A DNA stretch of 64,000 nt from Shigella phage CM1: the sequence record MK962749. One strand, 5' to 3'. The position numbers were made by a program, and so were the translations under genes. Shown in pieces: positions 984-62,058 of the stretch (positions are counted from its first letter, which is position 1; every line of letters starts with the position of its first letter). Below the pieces are notes generated by a model. The model made no database searches. It was given only the letters and a program-made list of their open reading frames with translations, and was not told where the DNA came from.

Positions 984-1394
984 TCATTTAAGTTTAATGC
1001 AGTTTTTAAGCTGGCGTTCCATACGATCCACAACCTTGTCTGGAACATCATGAATGCTTTTATTACCGTGGCGGTTTTCAACCACGATCACGGTATAACT
1101 ATACCCATGACTGATTGCCATGTCAACATATTCCTGCACATGTTTTTCTTTTGTAAACGTATTACTTACCACGATACGGTCGTATCCCATACGCATCGTA
1201 TCTTCTACGTTATCTTTGCACCATTTTGCTGCGAGTGTTACTTTACTTGCATCCCAGTTGTAATTGCCGTCATCGTCATACCAGAACATGTCGTTCTCAA
1301 AATGTGGATACAGACCCTCTAAAGATAGCGCATTTGCCAGTGTTGATTTGCCAGACCCTGGTAGACCACGCACGATATATAGCATTTTAGACAT
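984..1394 (-). CDS. P-loop polynucleotide kinase-like protein
   Basis: Start taken at MSKMLYIV (GGAGGG RBS); Walker A GLPGSGKST; size and layout like the T4 Pnk kinase domain. Confidence 0.6.
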   Translation of the reverse strand: MSKMLYIVRGLPGSGKSTLANALSLEGLYPHFENDMFWYDDDGNYNWDASKVTLAAKWCKDNVEDTMRMGYDRIVVSNTFTKEKHVQEYVDMAISHGYSYTVIVVENRHGNKSIHDVPDKVVDRMERQLKNCIKLK

Positions 1395-1494
1395 AGTAAC
1401 CCTCCGTTTTAATTTCGATGATAGTATACCTAACTGTTTTGTTAATTTCAAGTGTTGACACTGGGTTATTTGTGTGGCAGGATAAAGGGACAAA

Positions 1495-2430
1495 ATGACA
1501 AATGAGGAACGTATGATGAAGTATTTTAATGCAGACGACCTAGTTGACAAAGGTCTTGTAACCAGCAGATATCACCCAGACCTTGGGTTAAAGATCTATA
1601 AATATGCCAGAAAAGTATTCTACAACAACTTATGGCATTTGTCTCCTCGATTACTGGAGTGCCGAGGCATTGTTGTCGGTAATGAAGGAAATGTTGTGGC
1701 ATGGCCCTTTACAAAAGTGTTTAACTTGGGAGAAAACTCCACCAACCTGCCTGACAATAAGCTTGTGACGGCGGTAGAGAAAAAGAACGGATTCCTTGGT
1801 GTGGTGTCATCTCATAAAGGTGAACTATTGTTCTCAACAACCGGGTCTCTTGATTCTCCATATTGTAACCTTGCAAAGGAAACCATCCAGGAGCAATGTG
1901 GTAATTTAGATCTTATCAAGAAGGTTATGGGCAATGAAAATATGACATTCATGTTTGAAATTTGTCACCCCTCAGATCCGCATATTGTTCAGGAAGATCA
2001 TGGCGCATATTTGATAGGTTGCAGATATAATGATTCTGGAATAATGCTACCAGAAGCAGCTTTAGATGGGATTGCCAAATACCTTGGTGCAAAACGTCCT
2101 CACACTGTGCGTGAAATTCCGTTCAGTTATGCAAAAGAATTAGCTGCAGAAACAAGAGGTGAAGGGTATATGATTCGTAAGCCTTACTACCCTTATGATC
2201 TGCAGCTGAAGATTAAGTCTCCATACTATCTGGCACGGAAGGCCGTAATGAGGGGTAAAGCTTGGAAGATTTGGGATGATGATATCTTTAAACGTGTTGA
2301 CGAAGAGTTTTACGGCATGGTAAACTTCATTCGTAACAACTACACAGATGATGTATGGAACTGCCTCCTGGAGCAGGAACGCCGTGAGATACTCGATTAC
2401 TATTTCCACAACGAGAACTATATGCAATGA
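1495..2430 (+). CDS. RNA ligase (Rnl1-like)
   Basis: 311 aa; nucleotidyltransferase motif I KxNG (VEKKNGF) near residue 96, as in T4 Rnl1; divergent from kinase/phosphatase pair. Confidence 0.7.
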   Translation: MTNEERMMKYFNADDLVDKGLVTSRYHPDLGLKIYKYARKVFYNNLWHLSPRLLECRGIVVGNEGNVVAWPFTKVFNLGENSTNLPDNKLVTAVEKKNGFLGVVSSHKGELLFSTTGSLDSPYCNLAKETIQEQCGNLDLIKKVMGNENMTFMFEICHPSDPHIVQEDHGAYLIGCRYNDSGIMLPEAALDGIAKYLGAKRPHTVREIPFSYAKELAAETRGEGYMIRKPYYPYDLQLKIKSPYYLARKAVMRGKAWKIWDDDIFKRVDEEFYGMVNFIRNNYTDDVWNCLLEQERREILDYYFHNENYMQ

Positions 2431-2777
2431 AGAAGTTGATTGTGTGGCTAGATGACTTGAGAGATCCGTCAAATTACGGGCTCCAAGACGCTGTTTGGCT
2501 AAAGAATTCCTCCGAGTTTATAGATTTTATTAACGATAATAGAAAGCTCTACAGACGCGTTTCTGAGTGGCATATGGACAACGACCTTGGAGAGGTATTC
2601 GAAGGGTACGATTGCCTATCTATGTTGGAGGAAAAATTTGTATTTGGTAAGCCTCCTGTAGTTGCCAACGTGAAGATTTTCGTGCATACTTCTAACCCAT
2701 CAGCGGCTCGTAAATTCATGCTTGCAGCTGACTCGTTTAAAAAGTTTGGAATAGAGATTAAACAAAACATCTACTGA
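2427..2777 (+). CDS. hypothetical protein
   Basis: 116-aa ORF, start overlaps upstream stop (ATGA); no recognised motif. Confidence 0.45.
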   Translation: MKKLIVWLDDLRDPSNYGLQDAVWLKNSSEFIDFINDNRKLYRRVSEWHMDNDLGEVFEGYDCLSMLEEKFVFGKPPVVANVKIFVHTSNPSAARKFMLAADSFKKFGIEIKQNIY

Positions 2778-2785
2778 GGACACTT

Positions 2786-3547
2786 ATGCGACGACTGATT
2801 ATTATCTCCGGTGCTGGTTTGAGCGCTGAATCTGGTATTCCCACTTTCCGATCTGGTAGCACTGCAATGTGGGAGAATTTCAGCATCGATGAGGTGTGCA
2901 ACATCCACACCTTTGCCAAGAACTACTATAAGGTGCATGACTTTTACAATGCACGTCGTGTAGCTTTAGGCAGTGTTGAGCCTAACCTTGCACATCTTCG
3001 GATCGCTGAGTGGTATTCCCGCTGGTCTGGTCGTGTGATCAACCTTACCACCAATGTAGATGATTTGCTGGAGCGTGCTGGTGTAAAACATGAAGATATT
3101 TTACATGTCCACGGGTATTTGCCAGAAATAGTCTATGAGGACGATGAAGGAAGTGACGTCATTAAGGACATTGGATACTCTGAGGTAGACGCAGGAAAGT
3201 ATACCTGGGTTAAGCCTAATGTGGTGTTCTTCGGAGAAGTAGCTCCGAAGTATACAGACATGTATGACCTGTTGACTTCTTTTACGAGCAATGATATGGT
3301 TATCCTTGTAGGGTGCTCCAACACAGTTATCAATTTTAACTGGGAGCTATTCCCTGCCTGCAATAAGGGAACCAAACTACTGATCGTTAATAAATACGAC
3401 TCACAGCATCTAGAGGAGAATGGCATTTCACGTAGTGATATTTACCAGTATGAGGATCGCGGCATCCCAGTTTGGTTTAACGGTGCGGTTGATGCCTTCT
3501 CTGATAAAACATTCATTGAGACTGTAGAAAACTTTATGGAACTTTAA
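2786..3547 (+). CDS. Sir2-family NAD-dependent deacylase / ADP-ribosyltransferase, zinc-less
   Basis: GAGLSAESGIPTFRS (Rossmann GAGxS..GIPxFR), TTNVDDL, catalytic-His region HVHG, VVFFGE; no CxxC pairs between. Confidence 0.8.
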   Translation: MRRLIIISGAGLSAESGIPTFRSGSTAMWENFSIDEVCNIHTFAKNYYKVHDFYNARRVALGSVEPNLAHLRIAEWYSRWSGRVINLTTNVDDLLERAGVKHEDILHVHGYLPEIVYEDDEGSDVIKDIGYSEVDAGKYTWVKPNVVFFGEVAPKYTDMYDLLTSFTSNDMVILVGCSNTVINFNWELFPACNKGTKLLIVNKYDSQHLEENGISRSDIYQYEDRGIPVWFNGAVDAFSDKTFIETVENFMEL

Positions 3548-3560
3548 AAGGAGACCTTTA

Positions 3561-4274
3561 ATGCTGAATACTAAATTAATTGACAACCTGGAAAAACTAT
3601 CCCAACCTGAAAACTACCTTTGGTCTGCCAACTGGGTGGAAAACTGGAACCGTGTGGCAGCTAAAGTGAAAAAATCATACACACCATTCGAATTACAGCT
3701 TAGCTTCATTGAGGAAGAGTTCAATGAAGTTTTGGAAGAGCTGGAGAAAGGTGATGGTGGAGATCACCTGCTAAAGGAGGCCTGCGATCTTCACGTTGTC
3801 ACAAGTTATGCAGCTTATCTTGTTAATGACAATCACGAAAAGTGGTCAAACCTGTTTGATAATCCACAAGGTCTTAAGTTCAAGATCGGTGAGTTCTATG
3901 ACACACTGATCGCTGCGAAAAACACATCCAAGCAAAGAGCGTCAGCTTACCGTTTAGCGGAGTTGTCAACAGCTTTGCTGTTCCAGCTTCGCGGCGATGT
4001 GTGCGGGATGATGCGTAAGGTTCTCAAATCGAATGACAGCAAGTTTGCACGGGTCAACCATCTACGGTATTCACACGGTGCCAGTGCAGATATGCCTGCT
4101 GAACAACTCATAGAGTTGGAGATTAAAGATCTTGAGCGACGCTTTGATGGTCGATATGAAGGTTTTGTTGCTAAGGAAGAATTCTACAACGGTAATAAAG
4201 TTATCATATTCCTTGACAGTAAAGGTAAGATCATGAAGCCTTCGAGCTTCAAGGATGTAGCAGAGTATATTTAA
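3561..4274 (+). CDS. possible MazG-like all-alpha NTP pyrophosphohydrolase
   Basis: 237 aa; ExxE...ExxD acidic pattern (IEEEFNEVLEELEKG ... KEACDL). Confidence 0.35.
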   Translation: MLNTKLIDNLEKLSQPENYLWSANWVENWNRVAAKVKKSYTPFELQLSFIEEEFNEVLEELEKGDGGDHLLKEACDLHVVTSYAAYLVNDNHEKWSNLFDNPQGLKFKIGEFYDTLIAAKNTSKQRASAYRLAELSTALLFQLRGDVCGMMRKVLKSNDSKFARVNHLRYSHGASADMPAEQLIELEIKDLERRFDGRYEGFVAKEEFYNGNKVIIFLDSKGKIMKPSSFKDVAEYI

Positions 4275-4646: not shown

Positions 4647-4902
4647 TCTTGCTAAACCTGTAGAAGCACACCAGTTTGATGGAAGCTCTTCATCAGTATC
4701 TGATCTGCAACGGTGGGTTGATACAGGTGTGTTTACATCGTCACCTGTTCGGACCAGAGATATTCGTCGCATGTGTGAGCTTGTTGAGCCGTTTGGCAAC
4801 TTGGTTTTGTACCAGGGAGATTGGTTAGTTGACTTTATGGGAGACTGGTTGGTAATGAGTAAAGAAGAGATGTTTAAAATTTTTAAGGAAGAGGCCGAGT
4901 AA
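4633..4902 (+). CDS. hypothetical protein
   Basis: 89-aa ORF, coupled to neighbours. Confidence 0.4.
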   Translation: MPLFNLAKPVEAHQFDGSSSSVSDLQRWVDTGVFTSSPVRTRDIRRMCELVEPFGNLVLYQGDWLVDFMGDWLVMSKEEMFKIFKEEAE

Positions 4903-6185
4903 TGCATCAAATCAAAACAACACTGTACGCACTGAACAAAGATGGCAGCTACCAACAGTGGAAAGTATTCACTGATGGCGAAAAGGTTATCGTAGAGTTT
5001 GGCAAGCTTGACGGTAAATTGCAGTACAAAGAGACGGTATGCACACCTAAAAACGTAGGTCGTGCCAACGAGACTACAGCTGAGCAACAGGCCGAGCTTG
5101 AGGCTATCAGCAAGTGGGAAAAACAAGTCCGTCTGGGGTATGTTGAAAACATGGAAGATTGCGAGCAGGGTGTTGATCTTTTACCTATGCTGGTGCATGA
5201 CTACCTGAAGCGTGGCAAGGCACTTAAATTACCTTGCTGGATCTTGCGTAAGTTAGATGGCCTTCGTCTGCTTGTTGTTTTCCAAAATGGTGAGCCTAAA
5301 TTTATTTCCCGTGGTAATAAGTCCTACCCTATTCAAGGAAAGCTTTTAGAGCAACTTCGTTCTTTCCATTCTACCACTGGGATTAAACAACTTGATGGGG
5401 AACTATACATTCATGGTCTTCCTTTGCAGAAAATAGTGTCTCTTGCTAAACGGTGGCGCACACAGGAAGAGATTCAGGCCGAGATCGATAAAGACTACAA
5501 GGCAGATAAAAAACGCCGTCATGCAGCAATTAAGGCAGGCTTATCAACATACAAAAACTTCAACAAGGTAGATATTCCTGTCGATGTTGAGCCTGTTCGT
5601 GATGATTTGCGTTACGGTGGATACTGTAGCTACGATCTGGAGTATCACATTTTTGATATTCCTAGCGACAAGGTGTGGTGGGATCCAGAAACAGAGTCTG
5701 GACGCTGCAAGGATCTTATGGATGCAGAGGATACCGTTACCACTCTGATGCTTGATCATATCAAGGTTGTTGACGCAGAGCTTGCGTACACAGTTGATCA
5801 TTGCGAAGAATCTGTTGGTATATTCATGTCCGAAGGATATGAAGGTACTATCATGCGTAATTTCTGCGGTAAATATGAGTATGGTCAGCGAACATCTGAA
5901 GCATTGAAATGGAAAAAGTTCAACGACGCAGAGGTGAAAGTTATTGACGTTGAGAAAGATAAGAATGATGAAGGTGTTCTTATCTGTGTTGACAAGGAAG
6001 GTGTTGTTGTTAAAATGAAGATGAAAGGCACGCACGAGGAGCGTAGCTATGACAGGATGCAGGAAATGATCGGCAAGTTTGTCACCTTCAAATATCAAGC
6101 AAGGACAGAAGACAACAACTACCAATTCCCTGTCGGTATCTGCGTCCGAAATGTTAACCCAGATACTTGGGAGGTTCTGGAATGA
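4902..6185 (+). CDS. ATP-dependent ligase (probable DNA ligase)
   Basis: 427 aa; motif I KLDGLR, motif IV-like EGTIMR, motif V-like LKWKKF. Confidence 0.65.
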   Translation: MHQIKTTLYALNKDGSYQQWKVFTDGEKVIVEFGKLDGKLQYKETVCTPKNVGRANETTAEQQAELEAISKWEKQVRLGYVENMEDCEQGVDLLPMLVHDYLKRGKALKLPCWILRKLDGLRLLVVFQNGEPKFISRGNKSYPIQGKLLEQLRSFHSTTGIKQLDGELYIHGLPLQKIVSLAKRWRTQEEIQAEIDKDYKADKKRRHAAIKAGLSTYKNFNKVDIPVDVEPVRDDLRYGGYCSYDLEYHIFDIPSDKVWWDPETESGRCKDLMDAEDTVTTLMLDHIKVVDAELAYTVDHCEESVGIFMSEGYEGTIMRNFCGKYEYGQRTSEALKWKKFNDAEVKVIDVEKDKNDEGVLICVDKEGVVVKMKMKGTHEERSYDRMQEMIGKFVTFKYQARTEDNNYQFPVGICVRNVNPDTWEVLE

Positions 6186-53694: not shown

Positions 53695-54089
53695 GATTTT
53701 TTATCCTCTCTGTTAATTAGTGTGGTGTTGTTCACCTTGCGAGGATAAGAATAACAGAACTCTCCGAGCTGTCAACCATTAGTTAGAATTATTTTTTGGG
53801 AAGAATTCTCCAGCCGCCGCCCCTGCCAGGTTAACCATCATTTTTCGTACTCTTCTTTATGTTCCAACGCTCCCGCCATAGCCTTTTCAACCAGGGTGAT
53901 AACTTCAGCGGCGTTGATCGCTACATTTTCCAGGGGATTATATTACTTTTCATTTTTGTACCTCCTCTTCAATTGTTACCTGCCCTGTAGCATAGGCCTG
54001 CCAGGCTGGCCCCGCCAGGTTGCAACGGTTAGCGCATCAGGTTAGAAAAATTTTTTGAAAAGTGTTGACAGCGGCCCCGCCAGGTGGCA

Positions 54090-54330
54090 CAATATACCTA
54101 TCGAAAGGACGGCAGGCACCGGTGACGGGGGAGACAACCACCGGGGATGGGCGCTGCATAAAATGAGAACGGTTATCATTATCATTTAAAAATTTATGCA
54201 AAAAATCCTTGCTTTCTTTGTCCTGTGTGATACTATAATAACAAGCCGGGGCAACAGGGGCCGGGAGACAATCACCGGGGGTGCCCGTTATTCTGCAAAC
54301 GAGAATGATTATCATTCAAAATTCTAAATG
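54090..54330 (+). ncRNA. two tandem related GC-rich units, candidate small RNAs or regulator-binding module (strand uncertain)
   Basis: Unit A (CACCGGTGACGGGGGAGACAACCACCGGGGATGGGCG...GAGAACGGTTATCATT) and unit B (GGGGCCGGGAGACAATCACCGGGGGTGCCCG...GAGAATGATTATCATT), each after a promoter-like TTGACA or TATAAT; approximate. Confidence 0.3.
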
Positions 54331-54419
54331 AGAACTCCTCGCATTTAATAAATTTAATTAGCGTGCTAATTACCCTCCGTAACAATTTCCTATAAAACAG
54401 TATCCCATAAAATATTCCC

Positions 54420-54640
54420 ATATAGAAATTTTAAAAATCCATTTCTGAAAACGAAAAATCGATTTCGTTCCCAAAAATTTCAGGTCGAGCTCCGGAACGA
54501 TTTCCAGAAAATCCGATTCAGAAAACGAAAAACAGATCGAGTACTGAGAAATTTATCGAGAAAAATTTTCAGAAAATTCAATCTTTGAAACGAAAAACAG
54601 ATCGAGTACCCGGAAAGCTGTACCGCAACCTCAAGATAGT
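54420..54640. repeat. array of three imperfect direct repeats
   Basis: GAAAACGAAAAA(T/C)(C/A)GAT(T/C)... three times at about 65-80 bp spacing, each preceded by AATCC(A/G)ATT; approximate. Confidence 0.6.
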
Positions 54641-54921
54641 GGTTAGACTATTACCATAAAAAGTAAAGGGTAAGTGGAGGAAGTTCTAGTAGAAGGATGT
54701 GAGCATGTGCGGGAAATCTGTAGTGGTGGTCTGGAATATGGTGCAAACGATAGGATGAGCGATTCAGCTTGTCGCGCCTACTCTGAAAAATCCATTTTAG
54801 TTTTCGATCCATTTTCTGATTTTCTAAGAATTTTAAAATATCTGGTCCGGTGAAATATCAAAAGGAGGAAATCCATTTTAGAAATCCTCCTGATCTCTAG
54901 CAACCTGATAACTTAAAAATA

Positions 54922-55254
54922 TCAGGTGCCCAGTTTGTTCTTTCCTTTATACAACCGTAAGGGTATAGTTTTTGTAACAGTCCATCTCCCCAGCCCTTCC
55001 CAGTTCCAGTTGTAGGCATGGTACCCGGTTACGCATGCACTGCTAGAATGGTCATAGGCATAAGAGAACGCTATACGCACCAAATGGAACCAGTCTTTCC
55101 ACGGTTGTGGTCCGTAAGCTTTTCTCCAACACCGACACAAACTAAATGTCTCAAGAATAGGTAGGATAACAAATCCATACACCGCCACCAGAATAGCCAG
55201 CGCAATGATTGTCAGGAATACATACCCTGCAGTTGAAACGATGATCTCTGTCAT
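54922..55254 (-). CDS. membrane protein
   Basis: 110 aa; N-terminal TM helices. Confidence 0.45.
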   Translation of the reverse strand: MTEIIVSTAGYVFLTIIALAILVAVYGFVILPILETFSLCRCWRKAYGPQPWKDWFHLVRIAFSYAYDHSSSACVTGYHAYNWNWEGLGRWTVTKTIPLRLYKGKNKLGT

Positions 55255-55454
55255 TTGTCGTCCCCTTTCTTACGGATATAGATGTGAGAGCCTGCCTGTA
55301 TATAAATTTCTCGACCATCTTCTGCAAAGATATGAAATACACGATCACCTTCATACTCGATACGTGATATCTTCATAATGGTCTTTCCACCTGGGATGCG
55401 GATCTCGTCCCCCACAGCGATGTTCCATGCAGATTTAAGCTTAAACATCTGCAC
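55251..55454 (-). CDS. hypothetical protein
   Basis: 67-aa ORF. Confidence 0.4.
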   Translation of the reverse strand: MQMFKLKSAWNIAVGDEIRIPGGKTIMKISRIEYEGDRVFHIFAEDGREIYIQAGSHIYIRKKGDDK

Positions 55455-55686
55455 CCTCCTTTGGGAGCTCTAACTCTGGCATAGCCATATACGCCACAAC
55501 AGGGTTGTAATCAAAGTAGAAATGACCGTTAATTATCCCAGTTTTGTGAGCATAGTCACCAGATCCTGCAAGAACAACCTCGCAAACTCCGAAATCCACC
55601 TTGCCATTCTCATCTGCCATGGCTACAATATACTTTCCTAGAGGCATGTTTTTAACGCCGTCTACAAATGTCCACCCTTTGTTCAT
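55441..55686 (-). CDS. hypothetical protein
   Basis: 81-aa ORF. Confidence 0.4.
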   Translation of the reverse strand: MNKGWTFVDGVKNMPLGKYIVAMADENGKVDFGVCEVVLAGSGDYAHKTGIINGHFYFDYNPVVAYMAMPELELPKEGADV

Positions 55687-55706
55687 ACTTTATCTCCTGC
55701 ATTCTC

Positions 55707-56039
55707 TTAAGGTAACCAGTAAACAATCTCGCCTTTCAGCTTCATGTCGTTTCCAACATAAATTTGCCAGCCATCCATCTTAGCAGCTGCAGGCCCAAAG
55801 TCATCCGCACCCCTTACCTCTTTCCAGGTCCCGTAGTCAGGTTGCCAGATGTAAAATCCACCTTCTTTGTCCCATGCTCCATACACTACGTTTAACAAGT
55901 TTCCCATTGCAACAATAGTGGGCCGTGGGAACAATGCATCTACAGATGCGCCACAATATTTGGTATCTTTTAAATTGCACTCCCAAAAGATGTCTGCCAG
56001 TGTGGCGGCGATAGCTTTACGTCTTTCTAATGTTACCAT
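55707..56039 (-). CDS. hypothetical protein
   Basis: 110-aa ORF. Confidence 0.45.
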   Translation of the reverse strand: MVTLERRKAIAATLADIFWECNLKDTKYCGASVDALFPRPTIVAMGNLLNVVYGAWDKEGGFYIWQPDYGTWKEVRGADDFGPAAAKMDGWQIYVGNDMKLKGEIVYWLP

Positions 56040-56046
56040 ATCATAC

Positions 56047-56238
56047 TCACTTGTTGTTAATAAGTTCTAAAACTTTCTGTCTTACCTTATCAATATCTGT
56101 TGATTCAAAAACTGTACGATATCCCCAACTTTGCCCATAAGAATGGCTGCAATCACCATAACACCATTGCTCAATTTGATAGTATTCAAGGAACGGGTGC
56201 TGTCTAACTATGATACCGTCCCGGTTAAAAATTACCAT
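56047..56238 (-). CDS. hypothetical protein
   Basis: 63-aa ORF. Confidence 0.4.
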   Translation of the reverse strand: MVIFNRDGIIVRQHPFLEYYQIEQWCYGDCSHSYGQSWGYRTVFESTDIDKVRQKVLELINNK

Positions 56239-56301
56239 AATACATCACTCTCTGTTAGTTTATGCGTATATTATACACTGCAGTTTTCAGATGTCAACCT
56301 C

Positions 56302-56496
56302 TTACAGATTGCTCCAGTACAATCGGCATTTACATTTTGGGCAATGAGGTTCTTTTATGTAATAACCGTCAGTCTTTGGAACACTTTTTGGTGCAGTTTT
56401 AAGATTGTACCTGGTAAAACATCGGAAGCAGGTTACCTCTCCCACCTGTTGATCGTTGATCCACTCACCAGAGTAAAGTTCTTTCTTGTTTCTCAT
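56302..56496 (-). CDS. small zinc-ribbon protein
   Basis: ORF 56302-56553; start at MRNKKE with GGGAGAG RBS; CFRC...CPKCKC. Confidence 0.4.
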   Translation of the reverse strand: MRNKKELYSGEWINDQQVGEVTCFRCFTRYNLKTAPKSVPKTDGYYIKEPHCPKCKCRLYWSNL

Positions 56497-56522
56497 AATT
56501 CTCTCCCAAATCCTCTGCAATC

Positions 56523-56693
56523 TTATACCAAAATCTCCAGCCAGAAAGCACACGGGAACACTTTGAGGATTGAATCTTTACTTGGCTCGGAAGTTCTTTT
56601 TCCGTATGGTAGGTAGAAATACCCTCCTGCAGATTCGAATATAGCTCCTTCGGTTGTATCTACCACAGCAAGAATTAAGATTTTAGTCTCCAC
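56523..56693 (-). CDS. possible 56-aa small protein (GTG start)
   Basis: AGAGGAGAG then GTG; VETKILILAVVDTTEGAIFESAGGYFYLPYGKRT...; not in ORF track. Confidence 0.25.
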   Translation of the reverse strand: METKILILAVVDTTEGAIFESAGGYFYLPYGKRTSEPSKDSILKVFPCAFWLEILV

Positions 56694-56747
56694 AGTGCTC
56701 TCCTCTCTTAGTTGTCGTGGAAACTATATCACCTCAGAAGATGGTCG

Positions 56748-57206
56748 TCAACACTTTTTGTACTCCACCACGACAATATCTATGTCGAAAGTGGCAAGGT
56801 TAATAACGTCCTCTACGTGTTCCCACTTCAAACCGCCTATGCCGCACCCGATCTTAGGTATGTAGAATGGTAAAGTCGATCCGCTGAATACTTCATTGAC
56901 TAGCTCAAAGCCTTTCAGGATTGAGAAATACTCAGCATTAGGTCCTGGGTAGAACTGGGTATATAGATTGATTCCGTAGACAATACCTATCGGAGATAAG
57001 TGCTCCCATCGGGAGAACGCACCCAGTTTACTTAGGCAACCGTATCTAGTCTCTTTGTCGGCTGACAGTGCTTGAGGAAACTCACGGGCAATCTGTTTTG
57101 CTATACCCTTGCCCATTGTGTGGAAGCAGTTACAACCGTGGATCAGGTGACCAGCACCGCTCTTAAAAAGGGAGATTAAATCTCCCTCTACAGTATCAAT
57201 AATCAC
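56748..57206 (-). CDS. macrodomain protein, TARG1/OARD1 (DarG-like) family ADP-ribosyl hydrolase
   Basis: GAGHLIHGCNCFHTMGKGIAKQIAREFP and IPKIGCGIGGLKWEHVEDVI match remembered TARG1 segments; start set at GTG (about 152 aa). Confidence 0.65.
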   Translation of the reverse strand: MIIDTVEGDLISLFKSGAGHLIHGCNCFHTMGKGIAKQIAREFPQALSADKETRYGCLSKLGAFSRWEHLSPIGIVYGINLYTQFYPGPNAEYFSILKGFELVNEVFSGSTLPFYIPKIGCGIGGLKWEHVEDVINLATFDIDIVVVEYKKC

Positions 57207-57621
57207 GGTAAGCCAGCTCCTCTTCCGCAATTTCAAAAAACTCAGTCCAGCACTGTGGCATATTGGAGTTACCGAAGTGGCTTTCATAGTAAAGGTTCTT
57301 ACCGCTAGGAAGGTAGAAATCTGTTACCTCATAAAATCCACAATCGTCGCACTCACCTTCTTCAAACTTGGCCTTAACCTTAATACCGAGGAAGGTGAAA
57401 AGTTTATGGACATCTTCAGTTTCGAACTCCCAGGGAATGTTGTTTTCCGCATCGGTGTAGAACTGGATCAGCAGACCATTGTCCAGTTTACCAAAATACT
57501 CTGTGAAGTAACTTCCTTCCCAGAAATCTTTATGACAAATAATATCCATGCGTTTGCCCATAATAATGGTGTGAGCGTTTTGGGCATCGTCACGAATCAG
57601 TTTTGGCATTTCATAGATCAT
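57196..57621 (-). CDS. hypothetical protein
   Basis: 141-aa ORF. Confidence 0.45.
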   Translation of the reverse strand: MIYEMPKLIRDDAQNAHTIIMGKRMDIICHKDFWEGSYFTEYFGKLDNGLLIQFYTDAENNIPWEFETEDVHKLFTFLGIKVKAKFEEGECDDCGFYEVTDFYLPSGKNLYYESHFGNSNMPQCWTEFFEIAEEELAYRDY

Positions 57622-57689
57622 CTTAGTTCTCCTGGTTCAACAGGTGGTGGCGCTACAGGAAGATCATAAAACATAGCTATCACAGTCTC

Positions 57690-57887
57690 TTACACAGGAA
57701 TTGCTTCAAACAGGCCGTTATCTATACCGTCCTTCAGATAGAGATTATATTCTATGTCGGTATCTGTGTAAAGGGCAGCATCCAGCATTCTATCTGTGAG
57801 TCCATCCATTGGGTGGAGAAACCACCACCCACGCCAGTCAAAGTAACAGCCTGGTGCATCTTCTTTTACACGGATTCGATAAATCAT
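57690..57887 (-). CDS. hypothetical protein
   Basis: 65-aa ORF. Confidence 0.4.
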   Translation of the reverse strand: MIYRIRVKEDAPGCYFDWRGWWFLHPMDGLTDRMLDAALYTDTDIEYNLYLKDGIDNGLFEAIPV

Positions 57888-57983
57888 GGGCAGTGGCCTC
57901 CTGTTAGTTATACATCCCAGTTTTCTTCGTTCATCACGTCCTCCCGTTCTATGAAGTTATAATTGCACACCTTTCAATCTGTG

Positions 57984-58400
57984 TCAACAGAAAACTTCAA
58001 CAAATTCTTCCACAGTTTTAATGTCGTGGGAAAAAGGTTTACGGCTATAACGGGCAATAGCACTATCAACCACCGCCCGGTACTCCAAATCTTCAGAATA
58101 TTTCATGAAGCATTGTAGCGTCTCTGGACAGATAGCTAAATAGCTCCACCACCCCTCTTCAGATTGGTAGTCGAATCCCATACTCTCCAACCATGAAGCA
58201 TATACGCCTGCACCCTCAAGCCAGTGAGTATTTTCATCCAGAAACTTGTTAATAGACATGTGAGCTTCTAAGCATTTATCCAGCTCTTTTCCGTTAACCA
58301 GCCACGCACTGACCGTGGCGCATCCAAGGTCTACAGATTGAGTTGACAGGTTGTATTGGTCATAGTTCTCAGGCTTAACAATGATATCTTCTAATGTCAT
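57984..58400 (-). CDS. hypothetical protein
   Basis: 138-aa ORF. Confidence 0.45.
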   Translation of the reverse strand: MTLEDIIVKPENYDQYNLSTQSVDLGCATVSAWLVNGKELDKCLEAHMSINKFLDENTHWLEGAGVYASWLESMGFDYQSEEGWWSYLAICPETLQCFMKYSEDLEYRAVVDSAIARYSRKPFSHDIKTVEEFVEVFC

Positions 58401-58462
58401 TTTTCAGATCTCCTTATACAAAAATGCCCCACCCTTTCGGGCAGGGCTATGTCAGTTAGGTG

Positions 58463-59086
58463 CTAAAAGTATTCATAGAGGTATCCATCGGGAGCTGGAA
58501 TTTTTTCATGAATGTAGTAATCAACACATATTCCGGTTTCTCTTCTACAAGAATTGTGGGATACCCATTCTTTAAGAACGTTGCCATTCATGTCCAGCCT
58601 CCTTACATTTTTACACCGTCTACCGCTGGTGCTTCTATGCAACAGAATATCCTCCGTCTGCTTGTCTTTATTTTCTCCCCAGGTCGTTAAACGGATATTA
58701 TCAAAAGAGTACCCTTTGAAATCATCTATCCTATCACAAGAAGGCTTTTTCCTTTTGTCGTATCCGCTGGCTACCCACTGATCATACAACTCTTTGTAAC
58801 CGTTCAGGTATAGCCACTCCTTAAACTCCTTTTTGGTGTAAGTAGGAGGCGGGTGACCTCTCTTCTTACTGTTGCACTTTTGAGTCTTGTACAACACGCG
58901 GATAACACCTTTTTCTGAAGAGTCGTGGGAAAATTGGTCAGCCTCCCTGCTGGCCTTCTTACAACACTCTTTGCACTTATTAAGATGACCGTCAGACATC
59001 TTTGGGTGTTTGTAGAACTCGGAGAGGTTTTTCACCTCTCCGCACTTGATGCACCTCTTACAATGCGTGGATTCTACTTTTGCCAT
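58463..59086 (-). CDS. zinc-finger HNH-like putative homing endonuclease
   Basis: Start at MAKVEST (GGTGGG RBS); CKRCIKCG...CKECC; HNH-like [22 protein letters not shown]. Confidence 0.4.
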
Positions 59087-60329
59087 ATTGCAAACCCACC
59101 GGAGCGAAAGGTATGTCATCACAGAAGTCATACTGTGCTGGATTCTGATCCATTGGGTCATCTTCCTCATCATTTACAGGAGGAGCGTCTACAGTGTTTT
59201 GCTGTGGAGCTGCTTCCTGTTTGGCAGCCTGGGGTTCTTGATAGTCAGTTGACCCAGCACCGTTCTTGATCCAATCGTACAACGGCTCAGCCAGATTAGT
59301 CAAGACATCTTTTGCTTCTGCAGTAATTGCCGCTGCAAAATCATCAACTTTCGTTTTCTTGTCAATACGGCGACAAGCGTTCAACACCGCATTGCCGACA
59401 CTGGCACCTACTTCATCTTCAGTTCGGTTGGTGGCTTGAGCATACTCTTTCTTAAGCTCAATGGTGACTACGTGCAGTGTTTTAGCCACGCCTAGTGGGT
59501 CGTCCACCTTAAACCCGCGATCCAGGATGATCTGCAACGCATTGATGCTATGTCCCGTCTCCACACCGATAGGGTCGTAAGAGGATTTACGCTTGCCACC
59601 AGAGCCTTGAGTGCCGTTCTCTGCCTTAGGAGGATAGGCCTTGAAACCACTGATAATGTTTCCGGTGTCTTTGTCAACAATGGCTGCAACACGACCACCT
59701 ACCACCAGGTCTTTAAGCTGCTCATCAGTGACAACCATAGCACCTTCGCCAATCTTGTGGTCATTAACAGTAACCACGTTGCCAACAATCTGAGTCACAT
59801 CACCATAGATGCGTAAAACGTCTTGATTGGCATTCTGCTGAGGTTTCTGCTTCTGGCCTTGTGATTGTGCACCTTGTTGCTGTTTTTGCTGCTGAGTCGC
59901 TGCTGGAGCCTCTCCTGCACCCAGCTTAACCATCTTAGCCAGTGAGCCTTTGTAATAGGTCTTACCGTTATGCTCGTTTGCCTTCAAAGGGATATTTACG
60001 ATCCATCCTGGCGTTACGGTTTCCCACTTGTCATCAATCTTAACAGAGACAGAGTCTTGATGACCCGGTTTAAGCAGTTTATCACCCATACTGATCCAGA
60101 CTTCTTCACCACCTTGAAGCAGGTTATCAGAGGAATCCAGTTCAGAAATCAGTAAAGAGATGGTGTGGCTGGATTCAATTTTCTTACCTTGCCACACAGT
60201 GGTTTTAATACCTGTTGTAGGATCAGCACCTTTGATAGGCTTGATGCTGACACGTTTAATCATGCCGTGAGCCAGTAAAACAGTTTCACGCGGATTCATC
60301 GGGTTAGCGAATTGTTGAATAACGCTCAT
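59058..60329 (-). CDS. Q-rich linker protein, possible ssDNA-binding protein
   Basis: 423 aa; low-complexity linker [20 protein letters not shown]; acidic DEEDD...DFCDDIPF resembles the SSB tail DDDIPF but is not C-terminal. Confidence 0.35.
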
Positions 60330-60694
60330 TATTTGTCTCCTTGTTCTTCGTTAGTGTTTGCCGTGTGTGCAAACCCTGCTTGAATTAATTTGTCCTGAAC
60401 TTGAGCCAACAGCCCCATTGCAAAACTTGTGGTCCCAGAGAGGGCCATCAGCATATCTCGTTGTTGAGCTACCCAACCTAAGGCATAGTCCAAACGACGA
60501 TATTTTTCTTCTTCACGCAGAGCTTGAAATAATTGTTCAGCCTCTGGTTGTTGTGTGAGCTCCTGAAGTCTTCCCATGAAAGAAGAAAGCACTAGCAGAA
60601 GAGACACTTGATCTTTACTTAACCCTAAGAAAAATTCTTGAGGTTGTTCTTGCTCGTTCATCGCAACCGACGCTTGATCGTTCATTTGTTCCAT
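60329..60694 (-). CDS. hypothetical protein
   Basis: 121-aa ORF. Confidence 0.45.
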   Translation of the reverse strand: MEQMNDQASVAMNEQEQPQEFFLGLSKDQVSLLLVLSSFMGRLQELTQQPEAEQLFQALREEEKYRRLDYALGWVAQQRDMLMALSGTTSFAMGLLAQVQDKLIQAGFAHTANTNEEQGDK

Positions 60695-60777
60695 TATGGA
60701 ATCTCCGATTTTATTTGAACAACATAGAAGGAGACACTATTTTAGCATCCCCTTCTGCAAATTACAATAGGTATTTG

Positions 60778-61023
60778 TTAGCCAATCACTTCGAAAGTTC
60801 CCCAATTCCCGTCCAGCAGGCAGGTGATCGGCTCCCCATCGTCGTCAAAGATTTCAAAGTTTTCAGCACCCAGGATGTGGCCCTCGAACACAATACTTTC
60901 GTCGCCACCACCAGAAATAACAGCGTATTCCTTACCTTGAGTCAAGTTTTGACACCCTTTGCCACCAAAACCTACTTCCACACAACGTACTTTCTGTCCT
61001 GCGCGAGCAACTACTTCAGCCAT
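60778..61023 (-). CDS. hypothetical protein
   Basis: 81-aa ORF. Confidence 0.4.
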   Translation of the reverse strand: MAEVVARAGQKVRCVEVGFGGKGCQNLTQGKEYAVISGGGDESIVFEGHILGAENFEIFDDDGEPITCLLDGNWGTFEVIG

Positions 61024-61040
61024 CTTAAGGTCTCCTGATA

Positions 61041-61361
61041 TTAATCGTCAAGTTCAAAATAGATTTTAACAGCTTCATCAAAGATTGGAATCCCGATGTT
61101 GTTGATAAGCTGCCAAACTACCATATCTTTACCTGGGTCTGGGAGAATGTCAACCTTTCTCCATGCGCTGTATATCCAGTTCGGACCACCTTCTGCACTA
61201 ACTGGCAGATTTTCACCAGCCTCCTGCAGATACTTATACAGCAAAAGATACTCTGGATACTCTAGAATACTGTCCTCTGTAGTGTATAGCAGTTCACGGT
61301 ATACTTTTAAGAACCCTGCGGGGGTGATGTTTTCAGTCTTCATTTGCTGCCTCTCCTGCAT
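61041..61361 (-). CDS. hypothetical protein
   Basis: 106-aa ORF. Confidence 0.45.
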   Translation of the reverse strand: MQERQQMKTENITPAGFLKVYRELLYTTEDSILEYPEYLLLYKYLQEAGENLPVSAEGGPNWIYSAWRKVDILPDPGKDMVVWQLINNIGIPIFDEAVKIYFELDD

Positions 61362-61722
61362 TCATCAGATCTGCCATAGCGTCACCAACGAAGAGAACAA
61401 CCACATCGTTGACAGCGTCAGTATCATCTTTGTTGACGTTGCTGAATTTAGGACACACAGCAATGATCATATAGACACCGTTACCCACCTGAACTGTCCG
61501 TGTGGTGCACATCATGGCGGTATTTGTGCCTTCTTTGAAGGCGAAGCCTTGAAGACGCTCCTCTAGAGTGTTACCGGTAGACTTCAGAAGCGCCAGCTCG
61601 TCCAAGGCATAGATGATATCTCCGGAAGTTAGTGTTGCCTTGCCATCAGACACCATAATCACTCCATCAGCACCGTCAAGCTTAGAGGCTTCAAAGATAT
61701 CAATATCCCAAATATTTTTCAT
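61333..61722 (-). CDS. hypothetical protein
   Basis: 129-aa ORF. Confidence 0.45.
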   Translation of the reverse strand: MKNIWDIDIFEASKLDGADGVIMVSDGKATLTSGDIIYALDELALLKSTGNTLEERLQGFAFKEGTNTAMMCTTRTVQVGNGVYMIIAVCPKFSNVNKDDTDAVNDVVVLFVGDAMADLMNAGEAANED

Positions 61723-61994
61723 TACGCTTCCTCGTCATCTAAGTAATCATCAAGAGAGGTGAAGATTTCACCGAAGTATTCTAAGATTTCTAGCTCACGT
61801 GTGGTGCAGCAAACATAATCGCCTTGGTCGTCCTTAATAGTGGCCTCTTTACCCAGAATATCTACTTCAAGTTCATCGTTCAACAGGACGGCCCCTGTGT
61901 AAACTTTGTCAGCTGTGCAGTCCCGAAAAGCAGAGTCCTTCTCCAGACAGTCCGGCTTAACCTTGGCTTTAATTCGTTGATATTGTTTGGTCAT
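61722..61994 (-). CDS. small acidic Cys-containing protein, paralog of 62059-62310
   Basis: Shares KP(D/E)C.E.D.AF.DCT with ORF 62059. Confidence 0.45.
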   Translation of the reverse strand: MTKQYQRIKAKVKPDCLEKDSAFRDCTADKVYTGAVLLNDELEVDILGKEATIKDDQGDYVCCTTRELEILEYFGEIFTSLDDYLDDEEA

Positions 61995-62058
61995 TGCTAT
62001 GGTCTCCTTTTTCTTAGAGGGGGACCATTATATCTGGTCCCATCTTTCTTGTCAAGTA

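What the first reader, a model, noticed from the sequence alone, without database searches (positions are those of the whole stretch)
56748..57206. Early-region TARG1/DarG-like macrodomain: candidate ADP-ribosylation-reversing counter-defence
A roughly 152-aa protein in the minus-strand early array carries both hallmark segments of the TARG1/OARD1 macrodomain (HxxxCNC..MGxGIA and IGCG..L.WE.V). This is also the fold of the DarG antitoxin that removes DarT-installed ADP-ribose from DNA. A stand-alone copy among early genes suggests the phage erases host-installed ADP-ribose marks (DarT-type DNA modification or protein ADP-ribosylation). Together with the zinc-less Sir2 at 2786-3547 it may form a phage NAD/ADP-ribose writer-eraser pair.
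Basis: partly seen in the sequence, partly recalled or inferred. Interest (0 to 1): 0.75.

Follow-up and report, generated by a model that had tools for sequence, protein, structure and literature searches.

The report
Phage DarG-like macrodomain (AdfM homolog)
This small phage gene encodes an ADP-ribose-removing macrodomain enzyme related to phage T4 Tk.4/AdfM, which T4 needs to resist the bacterial DarTG2 DNA-ADP-ribosylating defence, so it is a real but already-recognised kind of counter-defence gene.

Summary

The window is a Vequintavirus (rV5-like), 99.9% identical to Escherichia phage I29, where the gene is already annotated "macro domain protein".

The protein is 39% identical over its full length (E 3e-41) to T4 Tk.4. 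A 2025 preprint named Tk.4 AdfM because its deletion sensitises T4 to DarTG2. So the counter-defence reading is supported by homology, but it is not new.

The TARG1 Lys84/Asp125 pair is absent here (Gln84 and Gly). Gln is present in 232 of 237 family members and in T4 Tk.4, and none has Lys. It occupies the position of the essential Gln85 of SCO6735, a lysine-less hydrolase of thymidine-linked ADP-ribose on DNA.

The proposed Sir2 "writer-eraser pair" is not supported. The Sir2 is real but lies 53 kb away, in a published RNA-repair neighbourhood (kinase, RNA ligase, cREC, Sir2). T5 has that Sir2 and no macrodomain.

Verdict: new member of a known kind, low-to-moderate interest.

The parts
56748..57206 (-). 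Macrodomain gene: 152 aa, GTG start at 57206, stop codon 56750-56748. Stand-alone Gln-type ALC1-like macrodomain, homolog of T4 Tk.4/AdfM.
   Evidence: Identical CDS boundaries in phage I29 (I29_188 'macro domain protein').
57129..57140 (-). Codons for H23-G24-C25-N26 (HGCN). N26 is the conserved Asn, equivalent to T. aquaticus DarG N22 and SCO6735 N27. H23 aligns with Poa1p H23.
   Evidence: N26 is present in 234 of 237 family members and H23 in 231 of 237. Alignments to DarG, TARG1 and Poa1p. Role of the Asn from PMC9411070 and PMC13309987.
57099..57116 (-). Codons for M31-G-K-G-I-A36, the GxG phosphate-binding loop of the macrodomain.
   Evidence: G34 and A36 are near-invariant. The GxG loop is the hallmark ADPr-binding cleft (PMC9503650 section 3.4.1).
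56955..56969 (-). Codons for N80-L-Y-T-Q84 (NxYTQ motif). Gln84 (CAG, 56957-56955) occupies the position of the catalytic Lys of TARG1 (K84) and DarG (K80), and of the essential Gln85 of SCO6735.
   Evidence: Profile-to-PDB alignments. Gln in 232 of 237 members and Lys in none. SCO6735 Q85A is inactive.
56832..56852 (-). Codons for I119-G-C-G-I-G-G125, the second glycine-rich substrate-binding loop. The position of TARG1 D125 is Gly124 here.
   Evidence: alignment to TARG1 (IGCGLDRLQWE against IGCGIGGLKWE). G120 and G122 are present in 232 of 237 members.
57196..57621 (-). Upstream ORF (141 aa, no recognisable family) whose stop overlaps the macrodomain start. Probably co-transcribed and translationally coupled. 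Not a homolog of T4 Vs.
   Evidence: No Pfam or NCBIfam hit. BLASTP against T4 Vs gives E = 34.
57744..57772 (-). Sigma-70-like promoter candidate (TTTACA, 17-nt spacer, TATAAT; 11 of 12 matches) upstream of the two-gene unit. Consistent with early transcription by host RNA polymerase.
   Evidence: The region has 23 promoter-like sites against 14.5 +/- 3.3 in shuffles. This is a consensus match only, not proof of function.

Best explanation
The gene encodes an orphan, single-domain ADP-ribosylglycohydrolase of the TARG1/DarG (ALC1-like) macrodomain class. It belongs to the large, mostly stand-alone family that includes T4 Tk.4/AdfM.

Proposed mechanism:
1. The gene is expressed early from host-type promoters.
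2. The protein binds ADP-ribose that a host DarT2-type toxin (DarTG2 defence) has attached to thymidines of single-stranded phage DNA.
3. It hydrolyses the ribose-base bond and releases free ADP-ribose, so that phage replication and transcription can proceed.

Catalysis is expected to be lysine-independent, as in SCO6735. The invariant Gln84, held in place by the invariant Asn26, positions the distal ribose for attack by an activated water. The protein lacks the C-terminal DarT-binding domain of the DarG antitoxin. It would therefore act on the modification rather than by sequestering the toxin.

Shown here: the gene, the fold, the class, the conserved residues and the homology to T4 Tk.4.
Taken from the literature: the T4 Tk.4 phenotype and the SCO6735 chemistry.
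Inferred: that this Vequintavirus protein has the same substrate and role, and that it is an early gene.
For: Fold and class:
- Pfam Macro.
- Model pLDDT 96.6.
- Foldseek top hits TARG1, Poa1p and DarG, at E about 1e-9.
- The PADLOC DarG model matches at 2.9e-13 over its macrodomain part only.

Homology to a genetically validated counter-defence gene:
- 39% identity to T4 Tk.4 over the full length, E 3e-41, with the same NLYTQF-PGPN-EY motif.
- A tk.4 knockout sensitises T4 to DarTG2, and tk.4 is otherwise non-essential.

Active site:
- H23, N26, N80, Y82, Q84, G120 and G122 are each conserved in at least 231 of 237 members.
- Gln84 aligns with DarG K80 and TARG1 K84.
- This is the position of SCO6735 Gln85, which is essential for dT-ADPr DNA hydrolysis.

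Comparative pattern: T5 has no macrodomain by tblastn or by family HMM over its whole genome and is DarTG2-sensitive. T4 has one and is resistant.

Conservation: about 116 phage records encode an ortholog at 80% identity or more, close to the 119 Vequintavirus-type records found with the surrounding DNA.
Against: - There is no experiment on this protein or on any Vequintavirus ortholog.
- The T4 evidence is genetic, comes from a preprint, and does not demonstrate hydrolysis by Tk.4.
- At 39% identity, substrate specificity could differ.
- The family is about equally distant from DarG, TARG1, Poa1p and BT1257/SCO6735, so structure does not single out DNA as the substrate.
- The family lacks the longer 'mobile loop' that SCO6735 and BT1257 have after the Gln (alignment; PMC9411070). 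The SCO6735 mechanism may therefore not transfer in detail.
- The protein is net acidic, by residue count of the translation: 13 Lys+Arg against 16 Asp+Glu. I could not evaluate a local DNA-binding surface.
- Iyer et al. 2022 argued from gene context that phage ADPr-processing domains more often target soluble ADPr derivatives (abstract).
Confidence: 0.6

Rival explanations
1. Metabolite clean-up enzyme. A Poa1p-like ADP-ribose-1''-phosphate phosphatase or O-acetyl-ADP-ribose deacetylase that processes small ADPr derivatives. One source would be the phage's own Sir2/cREC RNA-repair module: Sir2 acts like KptA and yields ADPr>P, cREC opens it to ADPr-1''P, and the macrodomain removes the phosphate.
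For: - GenBank and PHROG label the family 'phosphatase' or 'A1pp'.
- Poa1p residue H23 aligns with the near-invariant H23 (the 6lfs entry title names an H23A mutant).
- The same genome carries the kinase / RNA ligase / cREC / Sir2 cluster, which is predicted to generate such products.
Against: - T4 has the ortholog, and its only reported phenotype is DarTG2 sensitivity.
- T5 has the Sir2 homolog and no macrodomain.
- Iyer et al. state that this sirtuin neighbourhood is not coupled to a Macro gene.
- Here the two genes are 53 kb apart, on opposite strands.
- Macro and Sir2 homologs have very different phage distributions. Pseudomonas (183), Acinetobacter (93) and Aeromonas (86) phages carry the macrodomain but are not among the leading Sir2 hosts.
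- Appr1p phosphatase activity is a common weak side activity of macrodomains (established knowledge).
Confidence: 0.15
2. Eraser of ADP-ribose on proteins or RNA. It would either reverse host ART-type defences that modify proteins or RNA ends, or tune the phage's own ADP-ribosyltransferases.
For: - TARG1 and SCO6735 also hydrolyse Glu/Asp-linked protein ADP-ribose (PMC9411070).
- TARG1 is among the top structural hits.
- Macrodomains are versatile across protein, nucleic-acid and small-molecule ADPr substrates (PMC9503650).
Against: - The TARG1 Lys84/Asp125 dyad used for Glu-ester cleavage is absent.
- SCO6735 strongly prefers DNA over protein in competition assays.
- No ART gene was identified near the macrodomain gene. 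The rest of the window was not screened for ARTs.
- The T4 ortholog's phenotype maps to DarTG2.
Confidence: 0.12
3. Degrader or sponge of ADPr-derived immune signals (Thoeris gcADPR or His-ADPR, or other TIR/Sir2 products), or a non-catalytic ADPr binder.
For: - Iyer et al. 2022 predict that phage Macro domains mainly counter soluble ADPr derivatives.
- Macrodomains bind His-ADPR in Thoeris ThsA.
Against: - Strict conservation of the catalytic-type residues N26 and Q84 argues for an enzyme rather than a sponge.
- There is no experimental link between this family and Thoeris.
Confidence: 0.06

Closest known systems
Phage T4 Tk.4 = AdfM (anti-DarT factor, macrodomain); PHROG 335
   Same: - Stand-alone macrodomain of about 150 aa; 39% identity over the full length (E 3e-41).
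- Same invariant residues, including the NLYTQF motif with Gln at the Lys position.
- Sits in a block of small non-structural genes, and its start overlaps the upstream gene.
- Accessory (non-essential) in T4.
   Different: - Different phage family: Vequintavirus against Straboviridae.
- The upstream partner gene is unrelated to T4 vs.
- There are no experimental data for the Vequintavirus protein.
- It matches the DarG models somewhat better than T4 Tk.4 does: 48 against 36 bits in PADLOC, and 46.8 against 30.3 bits in NCBIfam.
Chimallivirus AdfM (PhiKZ gp104 and relatives)
   Same: A phage-encoded, single-domain, DarG2-like macrodomain that counters DarTG2 by removing ADP-ribose from DNA (PMC13309987).
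   Different: - PhiKZ AdfM keeps the DarG-type catalytic Lys (N23/K78). The window protein and its whole family have Gln.
- PhiKZ AdfM is imported into the phage nucleus. Vequintaviruses are not known to form one.
DarG (DarG2) antitoxin macrodomain of DarTG2 (T. aquaticus 5M31/5M3E, M. tuberculosis 5M3I)
   Same: - Same macrodomain class, conserved Asn, and Gly in place of TARG1 D125.
- Proposed substrate is the same, thymidine-linked ADPr on ssDNA.
   Different: - No C-terminal DarT-binding domain: only positions 4-142 of the 329-position PADLOC model are matched.
- Gln replaces the catalytic Lys80.
- Scores far below the NCBIfam equivalog cut-off, 46.8 against 250 bits.
- Not encoded next to a DarT gene.
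SCO6735 (S. coelicolor) and BT1257 (B. thetaiotaomicron), the lysine-less ALC1-like macrodomains
   Same: - Gln at the catalytic-Lys position, plus the conserved Asn that locks it in place.
- Stand-alone proteins.
- SCO6735 hydrolyses dT-ADPr DNA and neutralises DarT.
   Different: - The phage family lacks the 5-6-residue longer 'mobile loop' after the Gln (gap in the alignment).
- About 22-23% identity only.
- These are cellular housekeeping or stress proteins rather than phage genes.
Human TARG1/OARD1
   Same: Same fold and class: Foldseek top hit at E 9.6e-10 with TM 0.78-0.85.
   Different: The catalytic dyad K84/D125 is replaced by Gln and Gly. TARG1 works mainly on Glu-linked protein ADPr and OAADPr through a lysyl intermediate.
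Yeast Poa1p (ADP-ribose-1''-phosphate phosphatase)
   Different: Poa1p acts on a tRNA-splicing by-product. No KptA/Tpt1 gene is linked to the phage gene. The T4 ortholog's phenotype is anti-DarTG2.

Membership tests
Macro domain superfamily (Pfam PF01661) | Score above the Pfam gathering threshold, and the alpha/beta macro fold with GxG loops | tested here: met
ALC1-like macrodomain class (TARG1, DarG, SCO6735, Poa1p) | Closer in sequence and structure to TARG1, DarG, SCO6735 and Poa1p than to the MacroD, PARG, macroH2A or viral nsP3 classes | tested here: met
T4 Tk.4/AdfM family (PHROG 335) | Full-length homology to T4 Tk.4 and the family-specific invariant residues (HGCN, NxYTQ, PxIGxG) | tested here: met
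   PHROG 335 at 2e-59. 39% identity to T4 Tk.4, E 3e-41. Invariant columns are shared.
T4 Tk.4/AdfM family (PHROG 335) | Protects the phage against DarTG2 (the functional definition of AdfM) | not testable with these tools
   Known only for T4 Tk.4 and, for a Lys-type macrodomain, PhiKZ AdfM. No data exist for Vequintavirus.
DarG antitoxin (NCBIfam NF048014, PADLOC DarG) | Two-domain protein (macrodomain plus C-terminal DarT-binding domain) scoring above the equivalog cut-off | tested here: not met
   46.8 bits against a cut-off of 250. Only model positions 4-142 of 329 are matched. The protein is 152 aa.
DarG antitoxin (NCBIfam NF048014, PADLOC DarG) | Catalytic Lys (T. aquaticus DarG K80) | tested here: not met
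   Gln84 aligns with the DarG Lys. No family member has Lys there.
DarG antitoxin (NCBIfam NF048014, PADLOC DarG) | Encoded next to a DarT toxin gene | tested here: not met
   The neighbours are small phage ORFs with no recognisable family and an endonuclease. No DarT is annotated or detected nearby.
TARG1/OARD1 | Catalytic dyad Lys84/Asp125 | tested here: not met
   The profile alignment to 4J5R puts Gln at K84 and Gly at D125.
SCO6735/BT1257 subclass (lysine-less ALC1-like) | Gln at the catalytic-Lys position, stabilised by the conserved Asn | tested here: met
   Q84 and N26 are present and near-invariant. Equivalence to SCO6735 Q85/N27 is by transitivity through the TARG1/DarG alignment and the statement in PMC9411070. 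I did not obtain a direct residue-level alignment to 5E3B.
SCO6735/BT1257 subclass (lysine-less ALC1-like) | Extended 'mobile loop', five residues longer than in DarG and TARG1 | tested here: not met
   BT1257 carries a 6-residue insertion relative to the phage family immediately after the Gln (alignment). The loop is described in PMC9411070.
Sirtuin-macrodomain writer-eraser operon (SirTM-type) | Sir2 and Macro genes adjacent or fused and co-distributed | tested here: not met
   Here they are 53 kb apart on opposite strands. T5 has the Sir2 without a macrodomain. Iyer et al. note that this sirtuin clade is not coupled to Macro.

The most novel reading that the evidence does not exclude
The Tk.4-type phage macrodomains form a distinct third catalytic design within the TARG1/DarG class: invariant Gln, no Lys, no Asp, and a short loop. 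In V5-like phages the protein might then serve two roles. It would erase DarT2 marks on DNA, and it would also finish the phage's own Sir2/cREC NAD-dependent RNA-repair pathway by clearing ADPr-1''-phosphate. That would link DNA counter-defence and RNA repair through one ADP-ribose hydrolase.
Probability: 0.1. Interest if true: 0.55.

Novelty: new member of a known kind. Interest (0 to 1): 0.3.

Why it matters
If the assignment holds, rV5-like phages carry a ready-made eraser of DarT2 DNA ADP-ribosylation. These phages are widely considered for therapy and biocontrol of pathogenic E. coli. The eraser would help explain and predict their host range on DarTG2-bearing strains.

The result also extends the newly described AdfM class from T-even and nucleus-forming phages to a third phage group.

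The family analysis adds one point that is useful for enzymology. The large T4-type family (1,451 50%-identity cluster representatives at E <= 1e-30) uniformly uses Gln instead of the DarG/TARG1 lysine. Lys-based criteria for "active" DarG-like macrodomains would therefore wrongly dismiss it.

The concept itself is already published, and the gene is already annotated as a macrodomain.

Tried and rejected
1. Sir2-macro writer-eraser pair: rejected. The genes are 53 kb apart on opposite strands. The Sir2 is embedded in a kinase / RNA ligase / cREC cluster that is already described for phage V5. T5 has the Sir2 but no macrodomain, by tblastn and by the family HMM on six-frame ORFs of the whole genome.

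2. Conserved vs-tk.4 gene pair: rejected. I tested whether the upstream overlapping ORF (57196-57621) is a homolog of T4 Vs. It is not (BLASTP E = 34), and it has no Pfam or NCBIfam family.

3. Direct alignment to SCO6735 (5E3B): not obtained. I tried a C-terminal fragment query, but only the glycine loop aligned. The Gln equivalence therefore rests on the TARG1/DarG alignment plus the published statement.

4. 'RNase III inhibitor/regulator' label (YmdB-type, attached to M. tuberculosis DarG in the PDB): rejected. It is an annotation carry-over from the MacroD class, and the MacroD-type structures score much lower.

5. The longer 179-aa ORF from the ATG at 57287: rejected. It overlaps the upstream gene by 92 nt, and the homologs start at the GTG-equivalent position.

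6. Data on Vequintavirinae and DarTG2: none found. The papers found mention only NADAR-type AdfN in Bas60-62, acting against DarTG1. The HIDEN-SEQ main text describes no DarTG2 challenge of Bas54.

7. Second macrodomain in the window: none. The family HMM finds only this gene.

Full report
**1. What is at the coordinates**

The minus strand carries an ORF ending with its stop codon at 56748-56750. The mechanical ORF call begins at an ATG at 57287 (179 aa). That start would overlap the upstream ORF by 92 nt.

It is preceded by GAGGAG 10 nt upstream, and it overlaps the stop of ORF 57196-57621 within GTGATTATTGA. Homologs begin at the equivalent residue (MIIDTV...). GenBank annotates exactly this CDS in phage I29.

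**2. Where the window comes from**

Megablast of 55000-59000 finds 119 phage records. Escherichia phage I29 (Vequintavirus, Vequintavirinae) is 99.9% identical. In that genome the gene is I29_188, "macro domain protein". Other records call it "phosphatase" or "hypothetical protein".

The gene lies in a long minus-strand array of small ORFs downstream of the DNA polymerase gene. Sigma-70-like promoters are enriched in 54000-62000, with 23 sites against 14.5 +/- 3.3 in shuffles. Near-consensus sites on the coding strand include:
- 57772-57744, upstream of the two-gene unit formed by ORF 57621-57196 and the macrodomain gene;
- 56751-56723;
- 56297-56270, a 12 of 12 match.

An early, host-polymerase-transcribed setting is therefore plausible, but it is inferred.

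**3. Fold and class**

Sequence evidence:
- Pfam Macro scores 28 bits against a cut-off of 22.
- PHROG 335 ("phosphatase") matches at 2e-59.
- Single-sequence PDB hits are the M. tuberculosis DarG macrodomain (1e-6), yeast Poa1p, BT1257, SCO6735, T. aquaticus DarG and TARG1.
- A 40-sequence family profile raises these hits to 1e-15 to 1e-17.

Structural evidence:
- An AlphaFold2 model built on a 51-sequence alignment has pLDDT 96.6 and pTM 0.91.
- Foldseek against the PDB ranks TARG1, Poa1p and DarG first, at E about 1e-9 and TM 0.73-0.85.

The protein is therefore an ALC1-like (TARG1/DarG-class) macrodomain, roughly equidistant from the characterised members of that class.

**4. Catalytic residues**

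In the profile alignments the family motif N-x-Y-T-Q aligns with NFPTKK of M. tuberculosis DarG and LITKK of TARG1. Gln84 therefore occupies the position of DarG K80 and TARG1 K84. TARG1 D125 aligns with Gly. BT1257 also has Gln there.

I collected 237 family members: 94 from the word-indexed search and 143 from the exhaustive profile search. Among them:
- Gln is present in 232, and Lys in none.
- H23 is present in 231, N26 and N80 in 234 each, and Y82, G120 and G122 in 232 each.

- DarG itself lacks the Asp.
- SCO6735 has Gln85 at the Lys position, and Q85A and Q85E are inactive.
- N27 of SCO6735, the equivalent of N26 here, locks the Gln in place.
- SCO6735 removes thymidine-linked ADP-ribose from DNA faster than DarG or TARG1 and rescues E. 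coli from DarT (PMC9411070).

The phage family differs from SCO6735 and BT1257 in lacking their 5-6-residue longer "mobile loop" after the Gln (gap in the alignment). It is therefore a Gln-type, short-loop variant.

**5. Nearest characterised relative**

tblastn finds homologs in 2717 phage records. Among them are the T-even tk.4 genes next to vs.

The window protein is 39% identical to T4 Tk.4 over the full length (E 3e-41). The two share NLYTQF-PGPN-EY and the other invariant positions.

A November 2025 preprint reports the following for T4 (bioRxiv 10.1101/2025.11.20.689424):
- tk.4 was the single T4 gene depleted on a DarTG2 host in a transposon screen.
- A clean knockout sensitises T4 to DarTG2.
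- Tk.4 is otherwise non-essential, with 45 of 46 TA sites tolerating insertions.
- The authors named it AdfM and proposed, without showing it, enzymatic removal of ADP-ribose from DNA.

Independently, a chimallivirus macrodomain (PhiKZ gp104), also named AdfM, was shown to remove DarT2 marks from DNA in vitro and to protect the phage. That protein keeps the Lys (N23/K78) (PMC13309987).

The PADLOC DarG model matches the window protein at 2.9e-13, but only over its macrodomain part (positions 4-142 of 329). The NCBIfam DarG equivalog scores 46.8 bits against a cut-off of 250. The protein is therefore DarG-like in its catalytic domain but is not a DarG antitoxin. It has no DarT-binding domain and no adjacent DarT gene.

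**6. The Sir2 idea**

ORF 2786-3547 is a genuine sirtuin (Pfam SIR2 4.6e-27) and lacks the zinc-ribbon cysteines. It sits in a cluster with three other genes:
- a P-loop kinase (AAA_33);
- an Rnl1-like RNA ligase;
- a cREC cyclic-phosphate-processing domain.

Iyer et al. 2022 described exactly this neighbourhood for "Escherichia phage V5". They predicted a KptA-like role in removing RNA 2'-phosphates, and noted that, unlike toxin-antitoxin sirtuins, it is not coupled to a Macro gene (PMC9503650).

The two genes are also distributed independently:
- The Sir2 occurs in 1010 phage records, mainly T5-like, V5-like and jumbo phages.
- The macrodomain occurs in 2717 records with a different genus spectrum.
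- T5 encodes a 57.6%-identical Sir2 and no macrodomain anywhere in its genome, by tblastn and by the family HMM on six-frame ORFs.
- T5 is DarTG2-sensitive, whereas T4, which has the macrodomain, is resistant.

A writer-eraser pairing is not supported. A looser metabolic link, in which the macrodomain clears ADPr-1''-phosphate produced by the Sir2/cREC pathway, cannot be excluded. I keep it as a rival at low probability.

**7. Mechanism proposed**

Shown here: the gene, the fold, the class, the invariant residues, the homology to T4 Tk.4, and the absence of a second domain.

From the literature: the T4 Tk.4 anti-DarTG2 phenotype, dT-ADPr hydrolysis by Lys-type (DarG, PhiKZ AdfM) and Gln-type (SCO6735) relatives, and the role of the Gln/Asn pair.

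Inferred: the Vequintavirus protein is made early. It binds ADP-ribosyl-thymidine in single-stranded phage DNA through the two glycine loops. It hydrolyses the N-glycosidic link by a lysine-independent, water-mediated mechanism positioned by Gln84 and Asn26, and so restores a replicable template.

Confidence that it is an active ADPr hydrolase of this class is about 0.9. Confidence that its main role is anti-DarTG2 is about 0.6.

**8. Novelty and score**

The gene is already annotated as a macrodomain. This is a new member of a known kind.

Two points go modestly beyond the literature I could read:
- The T4-type family is uniformly Gln-type with a short loop, distinct from both the DarG/PhiKZ (Lys) and the SCO6735 (Gln, long loop) designs.
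- The family is very large: 20,313 50%-identity cluster representatives at E <= 1e-3, and 1,451 at E <= 1e-30.

Interest: 0.3.

Noticed in passing
window 984-4274: RNA-repair-type gene cluster: P-loop kinase (AAA_33; 984 to about 1394, minus strand), Rnl1-like RNA ligase (1495-2430), cREC cyclic-phosphate-processing domain (2427-2777), zinc-less Sir2 (2786-3547), and a 237-aa ORF (3561-4274) with no Pfam hit that may be the MazG-like protein. It matches the phage V5 neighbourhood that Iyer et al. 2022 predicted to be a sirtuin-based, KptA-like RNA 2'-phosphate removal system. That system is still uncharacterised experimentally, as far as I found.
   Followed up: partly
window 4902-6185 (+): 427-aa ATP-dependent DNA ligase (Pfam DNA_ligase_A_M plus DNA_ligase_OB_2), immediately downstream of the RNA-repair cluster.
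   Followed up: partly
window 56302-56496 (-): Small ORF two genes downstream of the macrodomain gene. It carries a 'Phage zinc binding domain' (PF23903, 8e-23). A perfect-consensus sigma-70 promoter match (TTGACA, 16-nt spacer, TATAAT) lies at 56297-56270, just after it.
   Followed up: no
window 58426-58447 (-) and 58463-60329 (-): Strong terminator-like hairpin (9 pairs, 7 of them GC, followed by a T-run) between the endonuclease gene and the next small ORF. The endonuclease ORF (58463-59173 as listed; annotated in I29 from the equivalent of 59086) overlaps the 3' end of the 423-aa ORF 59058-60329, which has a low-complexity Gln/Lys-rich centre and no recognisable family.
   Followed up: no
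GenBank records MG065644-MG065690 (hits H8, H9, H19-H24, H66, H89): Some 16-25 records named 'Campylobacter phage', with host given as Campylobacter jejuni, are 94-99% identical to this E. coli Vequintavirus at the DNA or protein level. They are probably mislabelled or contaminant assemblies.
   Followed up: no
L004 7588-8094 (T5 genome NC_005859, T5.105): T5.105 is annotated 'Sir2 (NAD-dependent deacetylase)', but its sequence contains ...FLDIDGVLN near the N-terminus, a HAD-phosphatase-type motif. The real sirtuin is T5.102, so this looks like an annotation error. It fits the Sir2 + HAD phosphatase neighbourhood that Iyer et al. describe for phages typified by SP15.
   Followed up: partly
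proteins P0109, P0166, P0186, P0227: A few close family members are much longer (378-570 aa), and two of them have two macrodomain stretches. These are fusions or tandem duplications of the Tk.4-type macrodomain, and their partner domains might hint at substrates.
   Followed up: no
H50, Acinetobacter phage TAC1 (MK170160) 84674-85129: In this phage the Tk.4-type macrodomain gene lies next to a nicotinamide phosphoribosyltransferase gene. This possible link to phage NAD+ salvage was not examined.
   Followed up: no
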